Origin: Nitrospirota bacterium
GTDB lineage: Bacteria; JACPQY01
Assembly: GCA_016190245.1 (NCBI GenBank)
Contig: JACPQY010000024.1
Span: 121,620 to 185,619, forward strand
Length of the DNA: 64,000 nt
Direction: 5' to 3'
Made by a program: the position numbers and the translations under genes. Below, in pieces: positions 9,701-18,106 of this stretch. Each line of letters begins with the position of its first letter. Position 1 is the stretch's first letter. Below the pieces are notes generated by a model. That model saw nothing but the letters and a program-made list of their open reading frames with translations, did no database searches and had not been told where the DNA came from.

Positions 9701-10157
9701 CCTCGCTCAAGTGGAAGTGTACGACCCTGCCTCGGACACGTGGGCTGCCCTTCCCCCCCTGCCCAGCCCGCGCTGGCAGGCGGCCGCAGTGGTCGCGAAC
9801 GGCAGGGTCTACGTGCTGGGCGGGCGCTACGCCAGTGCGCTGAGCCTCGTGGATGAATACAACCCGTCCGGCAACTCCTGGGCGAGCCGCCCGCCCCTGC
9901 CGACCGCGCGATACGGCCTCGCAGCCGTTTCCCTCGGGAGTCGGATCATCGCGATGGGCGGCCGGGCCGAGCAGGCCAACGGCGTGGTCGAAGAGATCAA
10001 TCTCGACGCGGCGACGCCCTGGGCCACGCGCAGCTCCATGCCGACGCCGCGCGCGTCATTCGTGGCCGTGCCCTACGCGGGCAGGATCCTCGCGGTAGGC
10101 GGCGCCGGCGCCGCACAAGTCCTGGGCGTGGTCGAGGCCTACTCGCCGCTGCCGTAG
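6711..10157 (+). CDS. Giant secreted modular protein with signal peptide, GVRAG peptide repeats, DxDGDG calcium-binding motif, Ig-like CxxC-x-LDG domain(s), fibronectin/Ig-like repeats and a C-terminal six-blade Kelch beta-propeller
   Basis: 1148 aa with a good RBS (aaggggg) before ATG 6711 and an N-terminal hydrophobic segment. Contains GVRAGVRAGIR...GVRVGVRAGVR, DLPDQDGDGVASLVEV, and SATLDCNEAACAYRCALDGAEPEPCPATL...GSHILEVRAVDPFGN. The C-terminus has six Kelch repeats (LYIVGGYSGG...VYVIGGSNGS...IIVAGGWNGS...VYVLGGRY...IIAMGGRA...ILAVGGAGA). Confidence 0.85.
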   Translation: MQWTARLGRDGAWLVFCLFSVHVANTGCDRFDGAAPKEAPPKSSADLIRLDVTIPLSPEAAAALLAVQEQDGLVADVDLNGRRAAQELPGRVEAGVRAGVRAGIRMAGAPTVKQGVRVGVRAGVRLSSGRGGGSTSPTPGSNVVLDSRSVSTGRGAGGLGLGLYTPLETQDSSSLVESPPLPALEADPPAGADEIVHHFSTSFELPTNLASDGGNRFDFRIRTERHADLILAQVSTLIRATWRDLPSASDGSGQGNTSDRARRALEISPEPLESYEVDLPDQDGDGVASLVEVATLVTVPPENGGRPLTLDEAAQAARTAGGPQVTPSQVKTAFSLLAKDLDVRTREDLNRSGTPAPATWHPVLTQADLTAPEARISVDATTLVEGSTVSATLDCNEAACAYRCALDGAEPEPCPATLALTLAPGSHILEVRAVDPFGNRSADPATAEIVVAPAPSCSSAACEESPTSSDEPPPPEPTVEFAEHPPLLSADPSARFHLTSAAPSARFACRLDTGRPFACPSTFEIKNLDDGPHTLAAGASADAAPNLFSWIVDQTPPDAGRAGHATTDGTAYHASATVFPATWTGFSDGQSGVVGFEVNLGTGNDCPGDTHPGVKVGDTDHALLTNLSLADGRKYYFCVRAVDRAGNASAWAVSSGTVVDLRPPVSVPRAPANGAKVAAVGPIGAIADDTLSGVQEVRVSIQRESDQKYWSGGWVDQESWLPVQKEETLSDAELPAWMMGESYTVRTFAIDRAGNVEPLSAQTKFVYDTAPPLFEGLAGAFAVGDSVILSWTPALDNVSAPSDMVYQICQSSTAAGCAAFTSTQVSAAGASSQVVANVPAGPGYFVVRAQDEAGNSDPNLIVRSDVAGFDVWAGRAPMPTPRTTAGGAVSGLELYIVGGYSGGAVLNTVESYNPLLDRWVARQPMPTPREGPAVAKVDERVYVIGGSNGSALNVVEVYDPQAGTWTTRAAMPTPRSHAAACALGGKIIVAGGWNGSALAQVEVYDPASDTWAALPPLPSPRWQAAAVVANGRVYVLGGRYASALSLVDEYNPSGNSWASRPPLPTARYGLAAVSLGSRIIAMGGRAEQANGVVEEINLDAATPWATRSSMPTPRASFVAVPYAGRILAVGGAGAAQVLGVVEAYSPLP

Positions 10158-10172
10158 AGCCCGGCCGGGGCA

Positions 10173-10355
10173 TCAAGACGCGTGCCGCCAGGTCCACCGC
10201 ATAGGGCCATCGGACACGAAATCGTATCGGGAGCTTGAGCTGGAGCCTCCCTGGAGTCGCTCGGCCAGCCAAAGCTTGATGATGGTTTGGCGGGTCACGC
10301 CCAAGCGCCTCGCCTCCCGGTCAAGGGACTGCACCCTCCAGGTGGGGAAGTCCAC
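10173..10355 (-). pseudogene. BrnA/CopG-family antitoxin C-terminal fragment (no plausible N-terminus)
   Basis: The minus-strand 60-aa ORF encodes ...SLDREARRLGVTRQTIIKLWLAERL, matching the C-terminal RHH region of BrnA-like antitoxins (compare the intact brnA at 21861..22166). There is no partner toxin and no N-terminal region. Confidence 0.35.
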
Positions 10356-11108
10356 TTTGACCCACTATTCCTGCCCGGGCCCGCGGGCCTTGGAACGGTC
10401 CAGAGCCTTAGCCATGTCCTCCCCTCGCTCAAAACGCCTGTCAAATTCCTTCGCTTTCATGGATCTCCATTCCCTCCTTTCGAGAGCGCCTCACGCGAAT
10501 CAGGCGCACTTTTTCGCCGCGATACGAACGACGCCCCCTCCGAATTCGCCCAACGCGTGGACCGCGAGGCCCAGCGCCGCGGCTTCGACCAAGCCCCACG
10601 TCAGGCCGTCCTGGGCGACGGCGCGCCGTGGATCTGGAACGTGGCCGACGAACAATTCCCCGGCGCCGTCCAGATCGTCGATCTCTACCACGCCAAGGGG
10701 CACCTCTCGGACGTGGCCAAGGCCAACTACGGACCGGGCAGCCACGTGGGCGCCCAGTGGGCCGAGCAGCGACACGACGAACTGGACAAGGGTGAGATGG
10801 ACGCCTTGCTGCAAGCCCTGCGCGTCCATGCCGACGCCACCGACGCGGCACGCCAGTGCCTGGACTACGTCACTCGCAACCGGAGCCGCATGCGCTACCC
10901 GGAGTTCCGCGCCCATGGCCTGTGCGTCTCCACCGGCGTCGTCGAAGCGGGCTGCAAGGTGGCCAGCGGAACGCGCCTCAAGCGCGCCGGGATGCACTGG
11001 ACCGTCGCCGGGGCCGACGCCATCATCGCCCTGCGCTGCTGCAAGTTGAGCGGCCGGTTCGAAGACTTCTGGGGACGACGATCAGCGGCGGCGGTCGCCC
11101 GCCGCTGA
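10287..11108 (+). mobile_element. ISKra4-family transposase remnant (C-terminal ~195 aa only; N-terminal two-thirds missing)
   Basis: From about 10520 the frame reads ...AVLGDGAPWIWNVADEQFPGAVQIVDLYHAKGHL...RMRYPEFRAHGLCVSTGVVEAGCKVASGTRLKRAGMHWTVAGADAIIALRCCKLSGRFEDFW, which is the conserved C-terminus of ISKra4-like DDE transposases. The upstream part of the ORF (10287-10520) is P/G-rich non-homologous sequence. No intact N-terminal region or inverted repeats were seen. Confidence 0.6.
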
Positions 11109-11142
11109 TGGGAGTATCTCACAAGTTTATCGTGCACCCCCA

Positions 11143-11285
11143 CTGACTCCTGACTGACCAGCCAAGGACGATGCCGTTCCAAGGATGACTGACGGTACCT
11201 GGAGCGCCACGAAGGCTGCGGAGGGTGCGGTACCCGCCGCAACAAACCGAGCCGGATGCGAGGTAGAGGTACGGAAGGGTACTTT
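11143..11285. repeat. Direct repeat A (left copy) bracketing the MTase-helicase cassette
   Basis: The 28-mer ctgactcctgactgaccagccaaggacg (11143-11170) is identical to 21463-21490. The tail ggtgcggtacccgccgcaacaaaccgagccggatgcgaggtagaggtacggaagggtacttt matches 21560-21620 with a few substitutions. The ~50-bp core between them diverges but keeps a ccaagga/tccttgg hairpin. Confidence 0.8.
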
Positions 11286-11323: not shown

Positions 11324-14300
11324 ATGGCCGAACGAGTGGAGCGACAGCAAGCCATATCGGAAATTCTAAGGAATCTTCACCAAACCAAAGCTAATGGGCT
11401 GAAGCAACTCTTCTGGACGGAGCTCAACTACAGCCAGGAAAACAGGCCGTTGAGCCCGCGTCCGTGGCCCGCGAGCGCCACGGAATCCCTGGATGATGAT
11501 CCGGTTCTGTTCGCCACCGGCGGCGAGGAGGGCGCGTTCCACGTCGTCTACGCGCGACTGTCCGGCGATACCCTCTCCCGCGGAGCGGAACGCCCCATCG
11601 TCAACCAACTCCTGCGCGACCATCCTTACGCGCTGTTCGTCTTCTCGAACAAGAGCCAATCGGCCTGGCATCTCCTGAATGTGAAGTATGACGACGCCGT
11701 GGAAAAGCGGCGCCTAATCCGCCGCATCTCGATTCGGGCCGGCGAGGGATTGCGGACCGCGGCAGAGCGCATGGCCTTGCTGGACCTTCAAGCCGTAAGC
11801 CCGAACCTCGTCGGGCTTTCGCCGCTCGCGATTCAACAGCGCCACGACGATGCGTTCGATGTGGAAAAGGTCACCAAGGACTTCTATCGCGAAATCGCCG
11901 ACTGGTACTTCTGGGCCATCGGGTGCGATCAGTTGTCCTACCCCCCGGACGTCCACCGGGACGACGAGAAAGCCCTTTTCCTGATCCGACTCCTCACCCG
12001 CCTGATCTTTTGCTGGTTCCTGCGGGAAAAGCGCAATCCGCGGACCGGGGAGGGCCTGATTCCTGACCCTATTTTCGATCCGCGTGGGATTGCCGGGTAC
12101 CTGAAAAACCCTTCTCCGGATTCCTGCTCCTACTATACGGCCATCCTCCAGAACCTCTTCTTCGCCACGCTGAATACTGAGATGGACCCACCCGCCGAGG
12201 AGGACAAGACTGGGCGACCACCGGAGCGCCGATTCGCGAAGGGGGCCGGCGATCACATGATTCACACCTTTTGGCGGCATAAGGACGATCTGCGCGACCC
12301 CGACGCGCTGACCCGCCTTCTACGCGGAATTCCGTTCCTGAACGGGGGTCTGTTCGAGTGTCTCGATGAACGGGAAGAAAAGGGGAGGTCGCCCTATACG
12401 AAGGAATTTCGCGTGGACGGTTTCTCGACCGATCCCGAGAAGCAGCCGAGACTGCCCAATTTCCTCTTCTATGGGCCGGGTCGGACGGCGGATCTCTCCG
12501 GCCCGTACGGCGATTCGACCCGGCGTCGCCAGACCGTCACCCCCATTCTGGAGATCCTGCGCCGGTACAACTTCACTCTCACCGAAAACACACCCTTCGA
12601 CCAGGAAGTGGCCCTCGATCCGGAACTGCTCGGGCACGTGTTCGAAAACCTCTTGGCCGCATACAACCCGGAAACGGAAACAGTAGCCCGCAATGCCACC
12701 GGCTCCTTCTACACCCCCCGAGTGGTGGTGGATTGGATGGTCGATCAGGCGATCACGGCGCGATTTGCCGGCGCCCTGAAGAATGGATCTCCCCTCGTGG
12801 GTGACCGGACGGAGAGAATTCGAAAACTCCTTTCATGGGAACACACGGATCACGATTTCAGCCCGCAGGAAACCGAAGTGCTGATCGACGCGATCGACAA
12901 CCTCAAGGCTCTCGATCCCGCCTGCGGCTCCGGCGCTTTCCCCATGGGCCTGCTCCAGAAGCTGGTCCATGTCCTGAAAAAGCTGGACCCCGAGAACAAG
13001 GCGTGGCGGAAGCGTCAGGAGGACAAGGCGAGGCAAATCGAGAGCAGCCCGACCCGCGAGGAAGCGCTCAAGGCCGTCGAACGCGCGTTCGCCCGCGACA
13101 ACGACGACTATGGCCGCAAGCTCTATCTCATCGAGAACTGCCTGTACGGCGTGGATATCCAACCCATCGCCGTCCAGATCGCCAAACTTCGGTTTTTCAT
13201 CTCGCTCGTGGTGGATCAGGCCATCGATCCGAAGGAGGAGAACTACGGCATCCTCCCCCTGCCGAACCTGGAAACGAAGATTGTGGCGGCTAACACTCTC
13301 GTCGGGCTGAAGCGGGGTCAACTCACCCTCCGCACGGGAAACGTCGAACGTCTCGAACAGGAGCTCAAACAGATTCGGCACGATTACTTCACCGCGAGAA
13401 TCTACAAGGAGAAGAAAAAGCTGCGGGCGCGGGACCGCGTCCTGTGCGGAGAGCTGGCCGAGGAGCTGGCGAAGTCCGGCGAGTTTACGACGCATGACGC
13501 CAAGCGGCTGGCCGAGTGGAATCCGTACAAGGCCAACGAGCCGGCCACCTTTTTCGATCCAACCTGGATGTTCGGCCTGACGTCCAACAAAACCGATGGA
13601 GTGTTCGATCTCGTCATCGGAAATCCTCCCTACGTTCGGCAGGAGGAACTCAAGAGCCGGATGGCCGTAGGGAGCGATGGGAAGGAGCGTCCGCTCAAGG
13701 ACGTCCTGAAAGAGCAGTACGAATGTTACGTGGGCACGGCCGATCTCTACGTCTACTTCTTCGAACGGTCCCTGCAACTGCTACGAATGGGCGGGATTCT
13801 GAGCTTCATCACGAGCAACAAGTATTTCAGGGCGGCGTATGGGGAACCCCTCCGGAGGTATCTCGCGTATGCCACGCGGCCGGCGGCGGCCCTCGATTTC
13901 GGCGAGGCTCCCGTTTTCACCTCGATCGTTGAACCAGCCATCCTCGTGGCGGAGAAGACACGACACATCAGCAAGGCGGAAGCGAAGCTGCCGGACTCTC
14001 TGGATGCGTATCCGCCGCCGGGGGACTGGAAATCCCGCGTTCTCACGTGGGTGCCAGCCAAGGATGGTGCGGCACCCCGCCAAGAAGGTCGGCCAGGAAG
14101 GTCGACGAAAGTAAGCGGGGCGCCGGGACCGGACTTCAGGGAGTTTCCGGAGATCTTCGAGCAGAAGGCCCAGGCCCTGCCACAGCGGGAGTTGAAACCG
14201 GACGGGTGGCGATTTGAAAGTCCGCTCAAACTCCGCCTCCTCGAACGATTGAAGAAGACGGGCACTCCGCTGGGCAACTACGTGAAGGGGCGGTTCTATT

Positions 14301-14725
14301 ACGGCATCAAGACCGGACTGAACGAGGCGTTTGTCGTGGACCGCGCCACGCGCGACCGCCTGATTGACGAGCACCCCTCATCGAAGGAAATCCTCAAACC
14401 CTTCCTCCGCGGCCGGGATGTGAAACGCTGGCGGTGCGAATTCGATGATCGGTATTTGATCAAGATTGAATCGTCGAAAAATGTGCATCACCCTTGGTCC
14501 GGGAAGCCGAAAAAGGAGGCCGAGAAAGTATTCGAAAAGACCTATCCGGCCGTTCACGGTTTTTTCGACGCAAAGAGGCAACCCCTCATCAAGCGATATG
14601 ACCAAGGGGAATACTTCTGGGAACTAAGATCGTGCGCCTACTGGCGGGAATTCGAGCAGCCGAAGATTTTGTACCCGGACATCTACGATCATCAGAGCTT
14701 TGCCTGGGACAGTGAAGGCTTCTAG
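11324..14725 (+). CDS. Eco57I/MmeI-type (type IIG/IIL, gamma-class) N6-adenine DNA methyltransferase with ~330-aa N-terminal domain and start of a TaqI_C-like target-recognition domain; terminated by an in-frame TAG inside that domain
   Basis: 1133 aa. Motif I is LDPACGSGAFPMGLLQKL, motif IV is VIGNPPYVRQ, and FITSNKYFRAAYGEPLRRYL plus ENCLYGVDIQPIAVQIAKLRFFISLV are typical of the Eco57I/PglX family. The C-terminal part (...AFVVDRATRDRLIDEH...KILYPDIYDHQSFAWDSEGF) is the first half of a TaqI_C-type specificity domain. The stop is TAG at 14723-14725. Confidence 0.85.
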   Translation: MAERVERQQAISEILRNLHQTKANGLKQLFWTELNYSQENRPLSPRPWPASATESLDDDPVLFATGGEEGAFHVVYARLSGDTLSRGAERPIVNQLLRDHPYALFVFSNKSQSAWHLLNVKYDDAVEKRRLIRRISIRAGEGLRTAAERMALLDLQAVSPNLVGLSPLAIQQRHDDAFDVEKVTKDFYREIADWYFWAIGCDQLSYPPDVHRDDEKALFLIRLLTRLIFCWFLREKRNPRTGEGLIPDPIFDPRGIAGYLKNPSPDSCSYYTAILQNLFFATLNTEMDPPAEEDKTGRPPERRFAKGAGDHMIHTFWRHKDDLRDPDALTRLLRGIPFLNGGLFECLDEREEKGRSPYTKEFRVDGFSTDPEKQPRLPNFLFYGPGRTADLSGPYGDSTRRRQTVTPILEILRRYNFTLTENTPFDQEVALDPELLGHVFENLLAAYNPETETVARNATGSFYTPRVVVDWMVDQAITARFAGALKNGSPLVGDRTERIRKLLSWEHTDHDFSPQETEVLIDAIDNLKALDPACGSGAFPMGLLQKLVHVLKKLDPENKAWRKRQEDKARQIESSPTREEALKAVERAFARDNDDYGRKLYLIENCLYGVDIQPIAVQIAKLRFFISLVVDQAIDPKEENYGILPLPNLETKIVAANTLVGLKRGQLTLRTGNVERLEQELKQIRHDYFTARIYKEKKKLRARDRVLCGELAEELAKSGEFTTHDAKRLAEWNPYKANEPATFFDPTWMFGLTSNKTDGVFDLVIGNPPYVRQEELKSRMAVGSDGKERPLKDVLKEQYECYVGTADLYVYFFERSLQLLRMGGILSFITSNKYFRAAYGEPLRRYLAYATRPAAALDFGEAPVFTSIVEPAILVAEKTRHISKAEAKLPDSLDAYPPPGDWKSRVLTWVPAKDGAAPRQEGRPGRSTKVSGAPGPDFREFPEIFEQKAQALPQRELKPDGWRFESPLKLRLLERLKKTGTPLGNYVKGRFYYGIKTGLNEAFVVDRATRDRLIDEHPSSKEILKPFLRGRDVKRWRCEFDDRYLIKIESSKNVHHPWSGKPKKEAEKVFEKTYPAVHGFFDAKRQPLIKRYDQGEYFWELRSCAYWREFEQPKILYPDIYDHQSFAWDSEGF

Positions 14726-14728
14726 TCC

Positions 14729-15259
14729 GTGAATACGACCTATTTTATTCCTACCACTGAGAAATGGCTCGCCGGGCTTCTGAATTCTCCGTGCGTCGAG
14801 TGGTTCTATTCCCAAATCGCCAACCGAGTGCGTGGAGGCTACATGCGCGCCTTCTCCGACTACATGAAGCAGGTCCCTATTCCAACCCTCTCTCCGAACC
14901 AACAACAATCCTGCGAGCGGCTGACCGAAGCGTTGATCTGGCTTCATTCCCCCCGAGTATCGAAGAAGACGACCGAAGCGCCGGTCGGCATGATGCAGGC
15001 GTATTTCGAGCAATGGCTCAACGGCCTCGTGTACGAACTCTTCTTCCCCGCCGAGCTCCACGCCCGGAAACTGACCCTCTTCGATGAAACCGCCAAGCTG
15101 AACCTCCCGGACCTCGCAGAAATTCCGGAGGCGCAGAAACTCCCCCGCCTCCGGGAATCGTTCGAGTCCGCCTACGACACCAACTCCCCCCTCCGCGCCA
15201 TGCTCTTCGACCTCCATTCCATTGAAGAAGTCCGCGTGATCGAGGAACGGACCGAATGA
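14729..15259 (+). CDS. Continuation of the methyltransferase specificity (TaqI_C-like) domain plus C-terminal tail, in the same frame as 11324..14725 and separated only by TAG + one codon
   Basis: Same reading frame (11324 and 14729 are both congruent to 2 mod 3). It begins SVNTTYFIPTTEKWLAGLLNSPCVEWFYSQIANRVRGGYMRAFSDYMKQVPIP, the second half of the TaqI_C consensus (..LLalLNSkl.ewyf...lrggy.rf...yl..lPIP), which is normally contiguous with the preceding ...FAWDSEGF segment. Confidence 0.6.
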   Translation: MNTTYFIPTTEKWLAGLLNSPCVEWFYSQIANRVRGGYMRAFSDYMKQVPIPTLSPNQQQSCERLTEALIWLHSPRVSKKTTEAPVGMMQAYFEQWLNGLVYELFFPAELHARKLTLFDETAKLNLPDLAEIPEAQKLPRLRESFESAYDTNSPLRAMLFDLHSIEEVRVIEERTE

Positions 15260-15327
15260 GCCGTGGGACGAATATCCGTAACGGGTATTTTATAAGTATT
15301 TGAATATACACGATATTATTTGAGATC

Positions 15328-15356
15328 TTGACAGCATTAATATATATGTTAATAAT
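15328..15356 (+). promoter_or_regulatory. AT-rich promoter (TTGACA-17 nt-AATAAT) with a partial dyad (attaata...taataat), likely the operator of the TA(C) operon
   Basis: TTGACA at 15328-15333 and AATAAT at 15351-15356. A 150-bp AT-rich gap (15260-15409) sits between GC-rich genes. The toxin ATG is at 15410. Confidence 0.45.
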
Positions 15357-15409
15357 GCCGATTCTAGTGGTGGAAGTACAGCAGGAATCGGTGCGCCAAG
15401 GAGCGGGGC

Positions 15410-15742
15410 ATGCCACTTCGGCAGGTCGCCTTCGGAAAACAGGGCACCGTAGCTGAATACGTACGAAGTGGTGGCCGATGTCCGGCGCGCGTTTTCTTGG
15501 ACTGGTGCCAAAAGCCGATGCGGGACAAGTTTGACGATGCGTTCGTTGCCCTCGTGAGAATGGGAGCAAGTTACGTCAACCAAGAACGATTCTGGCTCTT
15601 ACATGGGCATGGAAAACCCCTGTGGGAGTTCAAAGAACACCACCACAGACTCTACTGTGCCAGAGAGCAGGTTGGACCGGCTGTGAGGGTGATTCTTCTA
15701 CATGGGTGGAAAAAACAGAAGGAAGGTGGGACCAAAGAATAG
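15410..15742 (+). CDS. higB: RelE/HigB-superfamily toxin, phage Gp49-like (DUF891) family
   Basis: 110 aa. ...LWEFKEHHHRLYCAREQVGPAVRVILLHGWKKQ matches the Gp49-like/HigB toxin family signature. It is followed by an XRE-HTH gene in toxin-first (HigBA) order. Confidence 0.7.
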   Translation: MPLRQVAFGKQGTVAEYVRSGGRCPARVFLDWCQKPMRDKFDDAFVALVRMGASYVNQERFWLLHGHGKPLWEFKEHHHRLYCAREQVGPAVRVILLHGWKKQKEGGTKE

Positions 15743-15819
15743 GACCAAGAAATTCGGAAAGCTTTGAACTTATACATAGAGTTTCAGCAAGAAGAAAAAA
15801 TGATCGGAAAGGAGGAAGT

Positions 15820-16257
15820 ATGGAGAAGACTAAGCCATTGAGTCGTTCCCCCGCTCTAACCCGCCGGGATCTGGAAAGGGCTGAGGGTGTGGCCATCGCC
15901 ATGGCGCAGGCCACGATCCAAAATGCAATGGATGGCGCGAATATCACGAAGGCCGAGCTTGCCAGGAGACTTCGCAAGAAGCCTCCCTATATTACGCGCA
16001 TGATGCAAAGCGATCACAATTTGACAATCAGAACGTTTTCCGGCGCACTCGCGGTATGCGGATTTGAGGTGGACTTCGAGTTGGCTCCGCTCGGTCAGAG
16101 CTGGTCGCTCGCACCGGTCCAACGTACCTTCTACCGATCACGACCTCAAGCAAGCGTGACGCCTCCCATTTTGGGGGGCGTTCCTACGTGGTCGGCAAGA
16201 CCCGACTTCGCGGGAACGCTCCCCTTGGTTGGTTCGCTGGATTCGAGAGGAGATTAG
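15820..16257 (+). CDS. higA: XRE-family HTH antitoxin (HigA-like) with ~50-aa C-terminal extension (candidate chaperone-addiction region)
   Basis: ATG at 15820 is preceded by ggagga. HTH is ITKAELARRLRKKPPYITRMMQSDHNLTIRTFSGALAVCGFEV. The C-terminal tail QSWSLAPVQRTFYRSRPQASVTPPILGGVPTWSARPDFAGTLPLVGSLDSRGD is absent from plain HigA proteins. The 3-prime end overlaps the next gene by 29 nt. Confidence 0.7.
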   Translation: MEKTKPLSRSPALTRRDLERAEGVAIAMAQATIQNAMDGANITKAELARRLRKKPPYITRMMQSDHNLTIRTFSGALAVCGFEVDFELAPLGQSWSLAPVQRTFYRSRPQASVTPPILGGVPTWSARPDFAGTLPLVGSLDSRGD

Positions 16258-16759
16258 CGTGGCCGAGGATATCGATCTAGGAACGGTTGCCAAGATTGCG
16301 CGACGAGCGCGTCTGCTGGACATACAACTCGCTTTACTACAGGCAACCACTCAATCACGGCCGGGGGGCGAACTTGTTCCAGCACATAAAGTGTCTTCCG
16401 TCCTGCTTGGTCGAAAGGACTCCGGCGCCGTCATTGCCTCCTCATTCGCATTCACGGTTACCGTTGGTCAGGCTCAAGTCGCTGAAGTCAGCATGACATT
16501 CCACTTGGTGTATGAATTCGAAGGCCAAGATCCTCTATCGGACGACGACATCGGCCATTTCGCCAGAGGGAACGGAACGTACCACGCATGGCCCTACATG
16601 AGGGAAATGTTGAGCAATCTCCTCCCGCGTATGGGCTTCCCCCCCTTTACCCTTCCCGTTCTTGTATTCGGACAGCCTCAGCGGCAAGCACCTCAATCTG
16701 AAACGAAACAGGATGGACCAAGGGACGATCAAACAGAGGTGAAGGAACCAACCGTATAA
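16229..16759 (+). CDS. SecB-like chaperone (TAC-system chaperone, SecB_TA-like)
   Basis: 176 aa. The C-terminal segment GNGTYHAWPYMREMLSNLLPRMGFPPFTLPVLVF parallels the SecB motif (..CPNILFPYARE.I..LV.RGGFP.L.L.PVNF). Gene order toxin-antitoxin-SecB matches M. tuberculosis Rv1955-1957. Confidence 0.6.
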   Translation: MVRWIREEISVAEDIDLGTVAKIARRARLLDIQLALLQATTQSRPGGELVPAHKVSSVLLGRKDSGAVIASSFAFTVTVGQAQVAEVSMTFHLVYEFEGQDPLSDDDIGHFARGNGTYHAWPYMREMLSNLLPRMGFPPFTLPVLVFGQPQRQAPQSETKQDGPRDDQTEVKEPTV

Positions 16760-16870
16760 GCAGATTCCCGCCGAGGCAAGGGTGGTCCGCCTTTGAGTCA
16801 AGAGAAGAATCGAACGGGCGATCCCGTTCAGTAACTTGCATTTTAACCATCAATCGGCTAAATATCAGCC

Positions 16871-18103
16871 GTGATTCAGCGGCATATCTCGGGGAACTTG
16901 GACGAGTCTCTGGCGGACACCCCGGTGGCGCTCCTGACGGGCGCCCGGCAGACGGGCAAAACGACTCTCGCCATGGAGTGGGCCGGCCGAAGAAAGGCCC
17001 GGTACTTCACACTCGATGAAGCCGCAACCCTGGCGGGAGCCGCCTCCGACCCGCAAGGATTCATCGAAAATCTCGAACAGCCGGCGGTCATCGACGAGGT
17101 TCAAAAGGTTCCGGCCCTGCTTCCCGCCATCAAACTCCGAGTGGATCGCGATCGTCGGCCAGGAATGTTCCTTCTCACGGGTTCGGCCAACGTCCTCACG
17201 CTCCCGAAGGTGTCGGAATCGCTGGCAGGAAGGATGGAGATCCACAGGCTCTGGCCCCTCTCACAAGGCGAAATTCATGGCCGACACGAAGACTTCATTG
17301 CCACCGCGTTCTCCAAAAGGCCCCCGCGGGCCGTTTCGAACGGACTCATCCCCCTCGCACGGCCCATTACGGTGGGAGGCTACCCTGAAGTCCAAAAACG
17401 CAAGGGGAACCGCTCGGCAGCATGGTTCGGCTCATACATCAGCGCCCTTCTTCAACGCGACGTGCGGGACCTGGCGCACGTGGAACGCCTCACGTCCATC
17501 CCCAATCTTTTGACGCTCCTCGCCACCCGCTCGGCGTGCCTCCTCAACACTTCCGACCTCACGCGCGACGCGCGCATCGCCAACTCAACGCTCAAACGAT
17601 ACCTCAGCCTCCTGGAGATGATTTTCATCGCCTATCGCCTGCCCGCATGGTCGGTCAACCTCGGCAAACGTCTGGTCAAAGCGCCCAAGCTGATGCTGTG
17701 CGATACGGGCCTGGCCTGCCACTTGCTGGGCGCGGATGAGAACCGCTTGAACGGGGACGCGACCCTGAAGGGCAGGCTGACGGAAAACTTCATTTCGAAT
17801 GAATTGCACAAGCAGGCCACCTGGTCCGCTGTGTCTGTCCGCATTTTCCACTTCCGTTCGGCGTCCGCGCAGGAAATCGATTTTATCCTGGAGGATACAC
17901 GGGGGCGAGTTGTCGCCATCGAGGTGAAAGCCTCGCACACCGTCCGGCCCGAGGATTTCCATCCCATGAGGGCCTTGGCCGAATCGTTGAAGTCCCGTTT
18001 CATCCGGGGCATTCTTCTGCATGACGGCCGGCAGGTTATTCCCCATGGGGCAAATCTCTGGTCCGCGCCGTTTTCGTGTTTGTGGTCCGCCGGAGAATCC
18101 TGA
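16871..18103 (+). CDS. AAA+ ATPase of the DUF4143/AAA_14 (COG1373-like) family
   Basis: 410 aa. Walker A is LLTGARQTGKTTL and Walker B-like is MFLLTGSANVL. The C-terminal DUF4143-like region ...IDFILEDTRGRVVAIEVKAS has the typical architecture of this widespread ATPase family. Confidence 0.8.
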   Translation: MIQRHISGNLDESLADTPVALLTGARQTGKTTLAMEWAGRRKARYFTLDEAATLAGAASDPQGFIENLEQPAVIDEVQKVPALLPAIKLRVDRDRRPGMFLLTGSANVLTLPKVSESLAGRMEIHRLWPLSQGEIHGRHEDFIATAFSKRPPRAVSNGLIPLARPITVGGYPEVQKRKGNRSAAWFGSYISALLQRDVRDLAHVERLTSIPNLLTLLATRSACLLNTSDLTRDARIANSTLKRYLSLLEMIFIAYRLPAWSVNLGKRLVKAPKLMLCDTGLACHLLGADENRLNGDATLKGRLTENFISNELHKQATWSAVSVRIFHFRSASAQEIDFILEDTRGRVVAIEVKASHTVRPEDFHPMRALAESLKSRFIRGILLHDGRQVIPHGANLWSAPFSCLWSAGES

Positions 18104-18106
18104 ACC

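What the first reader, a model, noticed from the sequence alone, without database searches (positions are those of the whole stretch)
14700..14760. Single in-frame amber codon splits the methyltransferase inside its TaqI_C-like specificity domain
ORFs 11324..14725 and 14729..15259 are in the same frame, separated only by TAG (14723-14725) plus one codon. The translation ...KILYPDIYDHQSFAWDSEGF * SVNTTYFIPTTEKWLAGLLNSPCVEWFYSQIANRVRGGYMRAFSDYMKQVPIP is a continuous match to the TaqI_C consensus. The stop therefore truncates the TRD, so the MTase is probably specificity-dead. Possible explanations are a recent nonsense mutation (consistent with a decaying island: no integrase, truncated transposase), relief of self-toxicity after loss of protection, stop-codon read-through, or a sequencing error. 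An unmethylated host carrying an intact PLD-helicase would be expected to be selected against, so the state of this pair is informative about how the system works.
Basis: seen in the sequence. Interest (0 to 1): 0.6.

Follow-up and report, generated by a model that had tools for sequence, protein, structure and literature searches.

The report
Nonsense-mutated defence methyltransferase pseudogene
A single stop codon has replaced a conserved tyrosine inside the DNA-recognition domain of a large restriction-modification-type DNA methyltransferase, which most likely makes it a recently inactivated gene, an ordinary fate for bacterial defence genes.

Summary
TAG at 14723-14725 interrupts one reading frame (11324-15259) that would otherwise encode a 1311-residue Eco57I-family N6-adenine methyltransferase. 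Pfam TaqI_C positions 1-59 lie before the stop and 66-118 after it. Every homologue examined reads through this point, and most carry Tyr there, so the change is a single TAY>TAG transversion. Intact relatives are 1,105-1,428 aa and continue about 165-190 residues past this position; none ends here. TAG is a normal terminator in this window, and the window holds no tRNA gene. The 177 codons after the stop have no further lesion. They are no more diverged from intact homologues than those homologues are from each other, so the lesion is recent.

The sequence matches a GenBank metagenome-assembled genome labelled 'Nitrospirae bacterium', where the tail is annotated as a separate 176-aa hypothetical protein. 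No independent assembly covers the codon, so a consensus error cannot be excluded.

The gene belongs to a low-GC island with an intact PLD(HKD)-SNF2 helicase. The island resembles Hma / 'Type-2 BREX-related' systems but lacks their DUF499 and DUF3780 genes. This is an ordinary pseudogene of low interest.

The parts
11324..14725 (+). 5' part of the methyltransferase gene: 1133 codons plus the premature TAG. It comprises an N-terminal domain of about 430 aa with no family match, an Eco57I-type gamma-class N6-adenine MTase domain (motif I LDPACGSGAF, motif IV NPPY), and the first half of the TaqI_C recognition domain.
   Evidence: Pfam Eco57I 1.1e-35 at residues 605-865 and TaqI_C profile 1-59 at residues 1025-1132. 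PADLOC REase_MTase_IIG 1e-94.
14723..14725 (+). Premature amber codon replacing a conserved aromatic residue. The aligned residue is Tyr in 8 of 9 proteins aligned pairwise (Cys in P0006), and Phe in locus L004 and a few others. L002 uses TAC at this codon.
14726..15259 (+). In-frame continuation of 177 codons plus TGA. It carries the second half of the TaqI_C domain (TYFIP strand, LLNS helix, GGY..RAF...PIP motif) and the conserved C-terminal helical domain. GenBank annotates it from GTG 14729 as a separate 176-aa hypothetical protein, MBI2889872.1.
   Evidence: Invariant family residues (N, S, P, V, L columns) are all retained.
14714..14731 (+). GAAGG (14714-18) lies 10 nt before GTG 14729, which is 3 nt after the stop. 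This is a possible but unproven translational restart site. The motif is explained by the Glu-Gly-Phe coding sequence.
   Evidence: Read from the sequence. No test of function.
15410..16759 (+). Three overlapping small ORFs (110, 211 and 176 aa) with no convincing family match.
   Evidence: Only weak PADLOC PDC-M64 hits were found.
16871..18103 (+). AAA_14/DUF4143 ATPase (410 aa), matching PADLOC candidate PDC-S01. It sits in the cargo position between the methyltransferase and the helicase.
   Evidence: Pfam 3.6e-47 and 3.2e-24. PADLOC 4.8e-157. The same cargo gene is present in L009.
18107..21451 (+). Intact PLD(HKD) nuclease plus SNF2 helicase fusion (1114 aa), the presumed restriction effector.
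   Evidence: Pfam PLDc_2, SNF2-rel_dom and Helicase_C. PADLOC 'HKD+Snf2' 4.3e-82. Full-length single-frame matches in L006, L008 and L041 at 65-75% identity. GenBank MBI2889874.1.
10287..11108 (+). Remnant of an ISKra4-family transposase; only the C-terminal half is present.
   Evidence: NCBIfam NF033572, 1.3e-54, profile positions 236-421 of 422, score 186, below the 205 cut-off.
11140..11285 (.). Left copy of a direct repeat that brackets the methyltransferase-to-helicase island.
   Evidence: 31 nt at 97% and 63 nt at 92% identity to 21460-21490 and 21558-21620.
21460..21620 (.). Right copy of the bracketing direct repeat, starting 9 nt after the helicase stop codon.

Best explanation
The gene is a recently pseudogenised methyltransferase. 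A single-base transversion changed a conserved tyrosine codon (TAC or TAT) to TAG at codon 1134 of a 1311-codon gene. That gene encodes an Eco57I-family N6-adenine DNA methyltransferase with a TaqI_C-type target-recognition domain (TRD).

Translation should stop there, giving a 1133-residue product. It keeps the catalytic domain but loses the second half of the TRD and the conserved C-terminal helical domain. Such a product is expected to be unable to recognise its DNA site, so it would no longer methylate. That last step is inferred, not shown.

The gene is the modification/specificity partner of an adjacent, still intact PLD-nuclease/SNF2-helicase in a horizontally acquired, partly decayed defence island. 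The nuclease-helicase probably depends on the methyltransferase for target choice, as in Type I, Type III and Type ISP restriction systems. Losing the TRD would then switch off modification and restriction together, which would be harmless to the host. This dependence is also an inference.
For: - **Position and continuity.** The stop and the continuous frame are confirmed. TaqI_C is split 1-59 | 66-118.
- **Homologues read through.** More than 100 homologues cross this position. The aligned residue is Tyr in 8 of 9 proteins aligned pairwise, with Cys in P0006 and Phe in L004 and a few others, and L002 uses TAC.
- **Intact relatives are longer.** Representative homologues of 1299-1363 aa align up to this point and then continue 166-192 aa. 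A DNA-level survey of 80 metagenome loci gave 73 single-frame matches without a stop and about 40 complete ORFs of 1,105-1,428 aa. L041 is an intact methyltransferase-helicase pair of the same subtype.
- **The lesion is recent.** The 177 post-stop codons carry no other stop or frameshift. They are 67%, 63% and 57% identical to P0001, P0002 and L002. Those intact proteins are 61%, 55% and 66% identical to each other over the same columns, so the tail has not diverged faster.
- **TAG is an ordinary terminator here.** It ends 12 of 34 long ORFs in the window, and the window has no tRNA gene.
- **The lost segment matters for DNA recognition.** A model of homologue P0002 matches the TRDs of CamA, MmeI and M.BseCI (E 2e-6 to 4e-4). 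In a weak HMMER alignment the stop falls beside CamA Ser472/Ala473. CamA base-contact residues Ser472, Ala473, Ile517 and Tyr521 all lie at or after that point (PMC8187626).
- **The island is foreign and decaying.** It has low GC, a truncated ISKra4 transposase and flanking direct repeats.
- **Similar lesions occur at other positions in relatives.** L036 has Tyr447>TAA, L086 has TAG at residue 1056, and L004, L071 and L081 have frameshifts.
Against: - No independent sequence covers the codon. The only other assembly of this DNA, Logan contig L001 from SRR12113385, starts at window 15021, 300 nt downstream. A pattern scan of JGI metagenomes found nothing. A consensus or assembly error in the MAG is therefore not excluded.
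- Loss of methylation is inferred from homology and was not measured.
- The open, well-conserved tail is what a recent mutation predicts, but it would also fit continued selection on a separately translated fragment.
Confidence: 0.8

Rival explanations
1. The TAG is an assembly or consensus artefact. The real organism, or most cells in the sampled population, carries a tyrosine codon, and the stop is an error or a minority allele fixed in the MAG consensus.
For: The sequence matches a metagenome-assembled genome. The codon has no independent confirmation: L001 starts 300 nt downstream and the JGI pattern scan was empty. Assemblies of this gene family often break in or next to the TRD. L006 and L007 have 100-N gaps there, and L001 begins inside the conserved NGLVYELFFP motif. 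This suggests that related alleles co-occur and could confuse a consensus.
Against: The difference is a substitution, and consensus substitution errors are rare in short-read assemblies. The 6.5 kb shared with the Logan assembly is 100% identical. Comparable real lesions are seen in about 6-14% of related loci, so a genuine nonsense allele is not surprising.
Confidence: 0.12
2. The gene is a functional split or recoded gene. Either the ribosome reinitiates at GTG 14729 (3 nt after the stop, with GAAGG 10 nt upstream) and the 1133-aa and 176-aa fragments reassemble into an active enzyme, or the TAG is suppressed at low level to give regulated amounts of full-length protein.
For: A start codon and a Shine-Dalgarno-like motif sit in a plausible position. 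The downstream ORF is intact and as conserved as in functional homologues.
Against: No homologue is split here. Fragment start points in the databases are scattered from residue 948 to 1153 with no cluster at 1135. The stop is not conserved in any relative. The cut lies between strands of one compact domain. TAG is a normal terminator and no suppressor tRNA is in the window. The GAAGG is simply the Glu-Gly coding sequence.
Confidence: 0.05
3. The inactivation was adaptive. The nonsense allele was selected because the system was costly or self-toxic, for example after a specificity change or loss of protection. It would then be more than neutral decay.
For: Several relatives have lost the methyltransferase while keeping the helicase (L005, L008, L010). 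The island carries other signs of turnover.
Against: Nothing distinguishes selection from drift for a single allele. Most relatives are intact. Lesion positions are scattered and do not recur.
Confidence: 0.15

Closest known systems
Eco57I / TaqI_C-type gamma-class N6-adenine methyltransferases, including the MTase-TRD modules of Type IIG/IIL enzymes (MmeI, BpuSI) and the orphan or Type II enzymes CamA and M.BseCI
   Same: Eco57I domain well above the Pfam threshold, with motif I and NPPY present. TaqI_C TRD. Best PADLOC match is REase_MTase_IIG at 1e-94. The TRD of a 71%-identical homologue superposes on CamA, MmeI and BseCI.
   Different: The TRD is interrupted by a stop codon. The N-terminal 430 aa have no detectable nuclease or other family match. 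The protein is much longer than CamA or BseCI (about 1311 aa against about 580). It is paired with a separate PLD-SNF2 protein instead of carrying its own PD-(D/E)XK nuclease.
Hma system / 'Type-2 BREX-related (BR)' systems (Rakesh & Krishnan, NAR 2026, PMC12839542)
   Same: An N6-adenine methyltransferase is combined with a helicase that has an N-terminal HKD (PLD) endonuclease fused to a Swi2/Snf2 core. It is read as an R-M-like system in which the MTase marks self DNA and the HKD-helicase restricts.
   Different: The window has no DUF499 AAA+ ATPase and no DUF3780 gene, which the paper gives as core components (DUF3780 in 98% of taxa). The ATPase present is an unrelated AAA_14/DUF4143 protein in a variable cargo position. 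The PADLOC HmaA match is only partial.
Class 1 DISARM (DrmD SNF2 helicase, DrmMI adenine MTase, DrmC PLD nuclease)
   Same: The same three activities are present (SNF2 helicase, PLD nuclease, large adenine MTase). There are sub-threshold profile similarities to DrmD, DrmMI and DrmC.
   Different: All NCBIfam scores are far below the cut-offs (DrmD 153 against 610). DrmA and DrmB are absent. PLD and SNF2 are fused in one protein.
Nonsense or frameshift pseudogenes of restriction-modification genes, a common state of R-M loci in bacterial genomes (general knowledge)
   Same: A single point lesion in an otherwise conserved R-M-type gene within a mobile, decaying island. Comparable lesions occur at other positions in relatives.
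   Different: Nothing material. No repeat tract or inversion system that would make the lesion phase-variable was found.

Membership tests
Eco57I-family N6-adenine DNA methyltransferase with TaqI_C TRD | Eco57I catalytic domain above the Pfam gathering score, with SAM-binding motif I and the NPPY motif | tested here: met
   PF07669 scores 123.7 bits against a cut-off of 25.3. LDPACGSGAF and GNPPYVRQ are visible in the translation.
Eco57I-family N6-adenine DNA methyltransferase with TaqI_C TRD | A complete TaqI_C recognition domain in one polypeptide | tested here: not met
   Profile positions 1-59 lie in ORF 1 (20.6 bits, below the 26.5 cut-off) and 66-118 in ORF 2 (29.1 bits), separated by TAG.
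Type IIG/IIL bifunctional restriction-modification enzyme | N-terminal PD-(D/E)XK (or other) endonuclease domain in the same polypeptide | tested here: inconclusive
   No Pfam family matched residues 1-439 even at E<=5. PADLOC REase_MTase_IIG profiles do match the protein. No structure was predicted for the N-terminal domain.
Type-2 BREX-related (Hma-like) system | HKD-endonuclease + Swi2/Snf2 helicase fusion | tested here: met
   PLDc_2 at residues 125-211, with SNF2-rel_dom and Helicase_C, in the 1114-aa ORF 18107-21451. PADLOC HKD+Snf2 4.3e-82.
Type-2 BREX-related (Hma-like) system | DUF499 AAA+ ATPase in the locus | tested here: not met
   No DUF499 hit in any ORF between 10.2 and 22.9 kb. 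No unassigned ORF is large enough.
Type-2 BREX-related (Hma-like) system | Stand-alone DUF3780 gene | tested here: not met
   The small ORFs 15410-16759 and 21494-21799 have no Pfam or NCBIfam match.
BREX PglX methyltransferase | Score above the NCBIfam BREX MTaseX cut-off | tested here: not met
   Best score is 42.9 bits against a cut-off of 500.
DISARM class 1 | DrmD at equivalog score, with DrmA and DrmB present | tested here: not met
   DrmD scores 153 bits against a cut-off of 610. No DrmA- or DrmB-like ORFs are in the island.
Programmed stop-codon read-through or reassignment | The stop is conserved in relatives, or TAG is not used as a terminator, or a suppressor/Pyl tRNA is present | tested here: not met
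   No relative has a stop at this position. TAG ends 12 of 34 long ORFs. The window has no tRNA gene. The rest of the genome was not available.
Naturally split two-subunit methyltransferase | Homologues that end at this point with a separately encoded C-terminal subunit | tested here: not met
   Intact homologues continue 166-192 aa past this point. About 40 complete single ORFs of 1,105-1,428 aa were found. Fragment start points are scattered and do not cluster at residue 1135.

The most novel reading that the evidence does not exclude
The amber allele could be one 'off' state in a population that carries several co-existing TRD alleles of a compact two-gene R-M-like module: an Eco57I-type methyltransferase plus an HKD-SNF2 helicase, without DUF499 or DUF3780, and with a swappable cargo slot between them. 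Three observations are compatible with this. Assemblies break repeatedly at the TRD. The flanks of the TRD are conserved while the TRD itself is mosaic. The cargo genes differ between loci. In this reading the truncated methyltransferase, possibly together with a reinitiated 176-aa fragment, would retain a role. None of this is shown.
Probability: 0.07. Interest if true: 0.5.

Novelty: new member of a known kind. Interest (0 to 1): 0.15.

Why it matters
The finding matters little beyond annotation. The two ORFs should be annotated as one pseudogene, not as a methyltransferase plus a 'hypothetical protein' (GenBank MBI2889872.1). The island should be scored as a probably inactive defence system.

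Two modest points go further. First, relatives that keep the PLD-SNF2 helicase after losing the methyltransferase suggest the nuclease-helicase is harmless without its partner. This is a testable clue that the methyltransferase supplies target recognition for restriction. Second, the methyltransferase-cargo-helicase layout without DUF499 or DUF3780 is a variant of the recently described BREX-related/Hma systems and may deserve its own survey.

Tried and rejected
- **Exact-protein look-ups.** Neither the 1133-aa nor the 176-aa product had a gene position on record. Only the helicase led to another assembly, L001, and that contig stops 300 nt short of the codon.
- **JGI metagenome scan.** A search for the 37-nt context with NNN at the codon found nothing.
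- **Source genome.** It is not among the GTDB species representatives.
- **TRD deletions in L006 and L007.** I first read these as deletions; they are 100-N scaffold gaps, so I rejected that reading.
- **Family-wide fragmentation.** I suspected this because every top protein hit was 624 aa or shorter, and several hits on long contigs start at internal alternative start codons. The DNA-level survey of 80 loci showed that most genes are intact. The impression came mainly from short contigs and from my own selection of short hits. L009 and L011 may also be long-read assemblies with indel errors.
- **Silent TRD cassettes or inverted repeats.** I looked for signs of programmed TRD switching. There is no second copy in the window and no convincing inverted repeat.
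- **N-terminal domain of the methyltransferase.** No family match was found.
- **Structure model.** Confidence is only moderate (pLDDT 74, low in the first TRD half), so I used it only for fold assignment and the position of the cut.
Full report
**Observation.** The window reads ...GAA GGC TTC TAG TCC GTG AAT..., with TAG at 14723-14725. Translating 11324-15259 in one frame gives 1133 codons, one stop, then 177 codons ending at TGA 15257-15259. The ORF listing returns the two pieces as 11324..14725 and 14729..15259, the second from a GTG. Pfam finds an Eco57I methylase domain (1.1e-35) in the first piece. The TaqI_C specificity domain is split, with profile positions 1-59 before the stop and 66-118 after it.

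**What the gene is.** The joined product is a 1311-residue gamma-class N6-adenine DNA methyltransferase, with motif I LDPACGSGAF and motif IV NPPY. Its best PADLOC match is to Type IIG REase-MTase profiles (1e-94), with weaker similarity to DrmMI and PglX. No NCBIfam model reaches its cut-off; BREX PglX scores 42.9 against 500. By sequence, the nearest solved structures are M.BseCI, CamA and M.TaqI. An AlphaFold model of the 71%-identical homologue P0002 (pLDDT 74) matches the DNA-recognition domains of CamA, MmeI and M.BseCI by Foldseek, with E from 2e-6 to 4e-4. The N-terminal 430 residues match no family.

**Is the stop an ancestral feature?** It is not.
- A search with 357 residues spanning the stop found 1090 homologues, and the best (71% identity) cover 99-100% of the query without interruption.
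- In alignments, the residue opposite the stop is Tyr in most close relatives. It is Tyr in 8 of 9 proteins aligned pairwise, Cys in P0006, and Phe in a few others including locus L004. L002 uses TAC. TAG is one transversion from TAC or TAT.
- An exhaustive search of 1.84 billion representative proteins shows full-length relatives of about 1,200-1,360 aa. The 1299-1363-aa relatives whose match reaches residues 1129-1133 continue 166-192 residues beyond it.
- A DNA-level survey, which does not depend on gene calling, covered 80 JGI metagenome loci. In 73 of them homology lies in a single frame without a stop, and about 40 are complete ORFs of 1,105-1,428 aa. L041 is an intact methyltransferase-helicase pair of the same subtype (59% and 65% identity).
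- Protein fragments in the databases start at positions scattered from residue 948 to 1153, with no cluster at 1135.

**Recoding.** TAG terminates 12 of 34 long ORFs in the window, including the well-supported Kelch, metallophosphatase and FG-GAP genes. ARAGORN finds no tRNA gene in the window. No relative carries a stop at this position. GTG 14729 lies 3 nt after the stop, with GAAGG 10 nt upstream. Reinitiation is therefore physically possible. However, the motif is simply the Glu-Gly coding sequence, and the cut falls between strands of one compact domain.

**Age of the lesion.** The 177 post-stop codons contain no second lesion and keep all family-invariant residues. Over the post-stop columns the window is 67%, 63% and 57% identical to P0001, P0002 and L002. 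Those intact proteins are 61%, 55% and 66% identical to one another over the same columns. The pre-stop figures are 71-77% against 70-76%. The tail has not diverged faster, so the mutation is recent, unless the tail is still under selection.

**Consequence (inferred).** The truncation removes the TYFIP strand, the LLNS...EWFY helix, the GGY..RAF...PIP motif and the C-terminal helical bundle. In a weak HMMER alignment to CamA, the stop sits next to CamA Ser472/Ala473. The CamA-DNA structure paper lists Ser472, Ala473, Ile517 and Tyr521 among the base-contacting TRD residues (PMC8187626). The equivalents of all of these would be at or after the cut. Loss of site recognition, and hence of methylation, is the expected outcome, but it was not measured.

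**Source and reliability.**
- The 176-aa tail is identical to GenBank MBI2889872.1 ('MAG: hypothetical protein HYY13_03700 [Nitrospirae bacterium]', 230.5-kb contig). The helicase is identical to MBI2889874.1.
- A Logan assembly of SRR12113385 (L001) is 100% identical to window 15021-21546 but begins 300 nt after the stop.
- A pattern scan of JGI metagenomes was empty, and the genome is not among the GTDB representatives.

The codon therefore rests on one MAG consensus. A substitution error is unlikely but cannot be excluded.

**Context.**
- The gene sits in a 55-60% GC island within 64-66% GC DNA.
- Downstream lie three small unassigned ORFs, an AAA_14/DUF4143 ATPase (PADLOC PDC-S01, 4.8e-157), and an intact 1114-aa PLD(HKD)-SNF2 helicase (PADLOC 'HKD+Snf2', 4.3e-82).
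- Upstream is the C-terminal half of an ISKra4-family transposase.
- The methyltransferase-to-helicase block is bracketed by direct repeats at 11140-11285 and 21460-21620. A copy of the Kelch gene's 3' end recurs at 21751-21887.
- In relatives the same methyltransferase and helicase flank different cargo: Schlafen/AlbA_2 in L002, AIPR plus AbiEi/AbiEii in L008, HNH in L007, and the same AAA_14/DUF4143 in L009.

**Comparison with known systems.** The closest described system is the Hma / 'Type-2 BREX-related' class. It combines an N6-methyltransferase, an HKD-Swi2/Snf2 helicase, a DUF499 ATPase and a DUF3780 gene, and is read as R-M-like (PMC12839542). The window has the first two components but neither DUF499 nor DUF3780. 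It works like that class but is not a member of it. DISARM class 1 shares the same activities, but its membership criteria fail.

Several relatives argue otherwise.
- L005 has a methyltransferase with an in-frame deletion of residues 199-783, which removes motif I and NPPY, next to a helicase that matches in a single frame to the contig end (residues 1-1012).
- L008 keeps only the last 67 codons of the methyltransferase beside a full-length helicase.
- L010 has a frameshifted methyltransferase next to a more distant PLD-SNF2 helicase of 1096 aa (24% identity).

The simplest reading is that the nuclease-helicase is inert without its methyltransferase partner. In Type I, III and ISP enzymes, restriction likewise uses the modification/specificity module for target recognition. 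That comparison rests on established knowledge of those families, and its application here is inference.

**How common are such lesions?** In the 80-locus survey the clear lesions are L036 (Tyr447>TAA), L086 (TAG at residue 1056), frameshifts in L071 and L081, and a frame change in L079. A further six loci are ambiguous: L044 and L060 have stops near a shorter natural C-terminus, and L030, L039, L055 and L061 have short ORFs that do not reach a contig edge. Among the genome loci, L004 is frameshifted in both genes, and L009 has both genes in three pieces. Lesion positions do not recur. This is ordinary decay of defence genes and does not indicate a programmed feature.

**Verdict.** The most likely explanation is a recent, lineage-specific nonsense mutation (TAY>TAG) that turns the specificity/modification subunit of an R-M-like defence module into a pseudogene (confidence about 0.8). 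Consensus error (about 0.1) and a functional split or read-through (about 0.05) are the alternatives. Whether the loss was selected is a separate question (about 0.15 that it was). Interest is low.

Noticed in passing
window 11140-11285 and 21460-21620: Direct repeats (31 nt at 97%, 63 nt at 92%) bracket the methyltransferase-to-helicase block. The left copy ends 39 nt before the methyltransferase start and the right copy begins 9 nt after the helicase stop. They could be attachment-site-like or recombination boundaries of the island. They are absent from the related loci fetched.
   Followed up: partly
window 10063-10199 and 21751-21887: The 3' end of the Kelch-repeat gene plus about 40 nt downstream recurs at 77% identity just beyond the island. 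This suggests insertion with target duplication, or a remnant of a second Kelch paralogue.
   Followed up: partly
window 10287-11108: The ORF matches only the C-terminal half of an ISKra4-family transposase (profile 236-421 of 422, 1.3e-54). It is a truncated IS remnant at the island's left edge.
   Followed up: yes
window 15260-18103; L002 11270-13063; L008 1334-5154; L007 10451-11428; L009 12240-13472: The space between the methyltransferase and the PLD-SNF2 helicase is a variable cargo slot holding different defence-type genes: AAA_14/DUF4143, Schlafen AlbA_2/HATPase_c_4, AIPR, AbiEi/AbiEii and HNH.
   Followed up: partly
L001 start (= window 15021); L006 1429-1528; L007 10054-10153; L071 about 850; L081 about 5145: Independent assemblies break or shift frame in or at the edge of the TRD. 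One contig starts inside the conserved NGLVYELFFP motif. Two loci have 100-N scaffold gaps spanning the TRD. Two loci have frameshifts at the same variable/conserved junction (residue about 1223). This would fit co-occurring TRD alleles with conserved flanks that confuse assemblers.
   Followed up: partly
L005 8855-11116 and 18057-21083; L008 1046-1246 and 5139-8504: These relatives keep the PLD-SNF2 helicase as a single uninterrupted match (full-length in L008, to the contig end in L005). The methyltransferase has lost its catalytic core in L005 (in-frame deletion of residues 199-783) or survives only as a 67-codon remnant in L008.
   Followed up: yes
L011 11808-14984: A 1058-aa TIR_2 + TPR protein carries a C-terminal segment of about 420 aa that is 36% identical to the methyltransferase's TRD plus C-terminal helical domain. 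It sits right after a frameshifted methyltransferase. This is an apparent TIR-TPR-TRD fusion.
   Followed up: no
L009 6585-17436: This locus has the same gene set as the window (methyltransferase, AAA_14/DUF4143, PLD-SNF2 helicase), but both large genes are broken into three ORFs each. This is either advanced decay or indel errors of a long-read assembly.
   Followed up: partly
most metagenome loci, e.g. L013, L023, L027, L031, L033: In most of the more distant relatives a PLD/SNF2 helicase (27-30% identical) lies upstream of the methyltransferase. The window subtype, seen in L041, L045 and L078, has the helicase downstream.
   Followed up: no
window 21864-22328 (minus strand): A small ORF just beyond the island's right repeat has a weak CopG-antitoxin-like match (1.8e-4, below the cut-off).
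   Followed up: no
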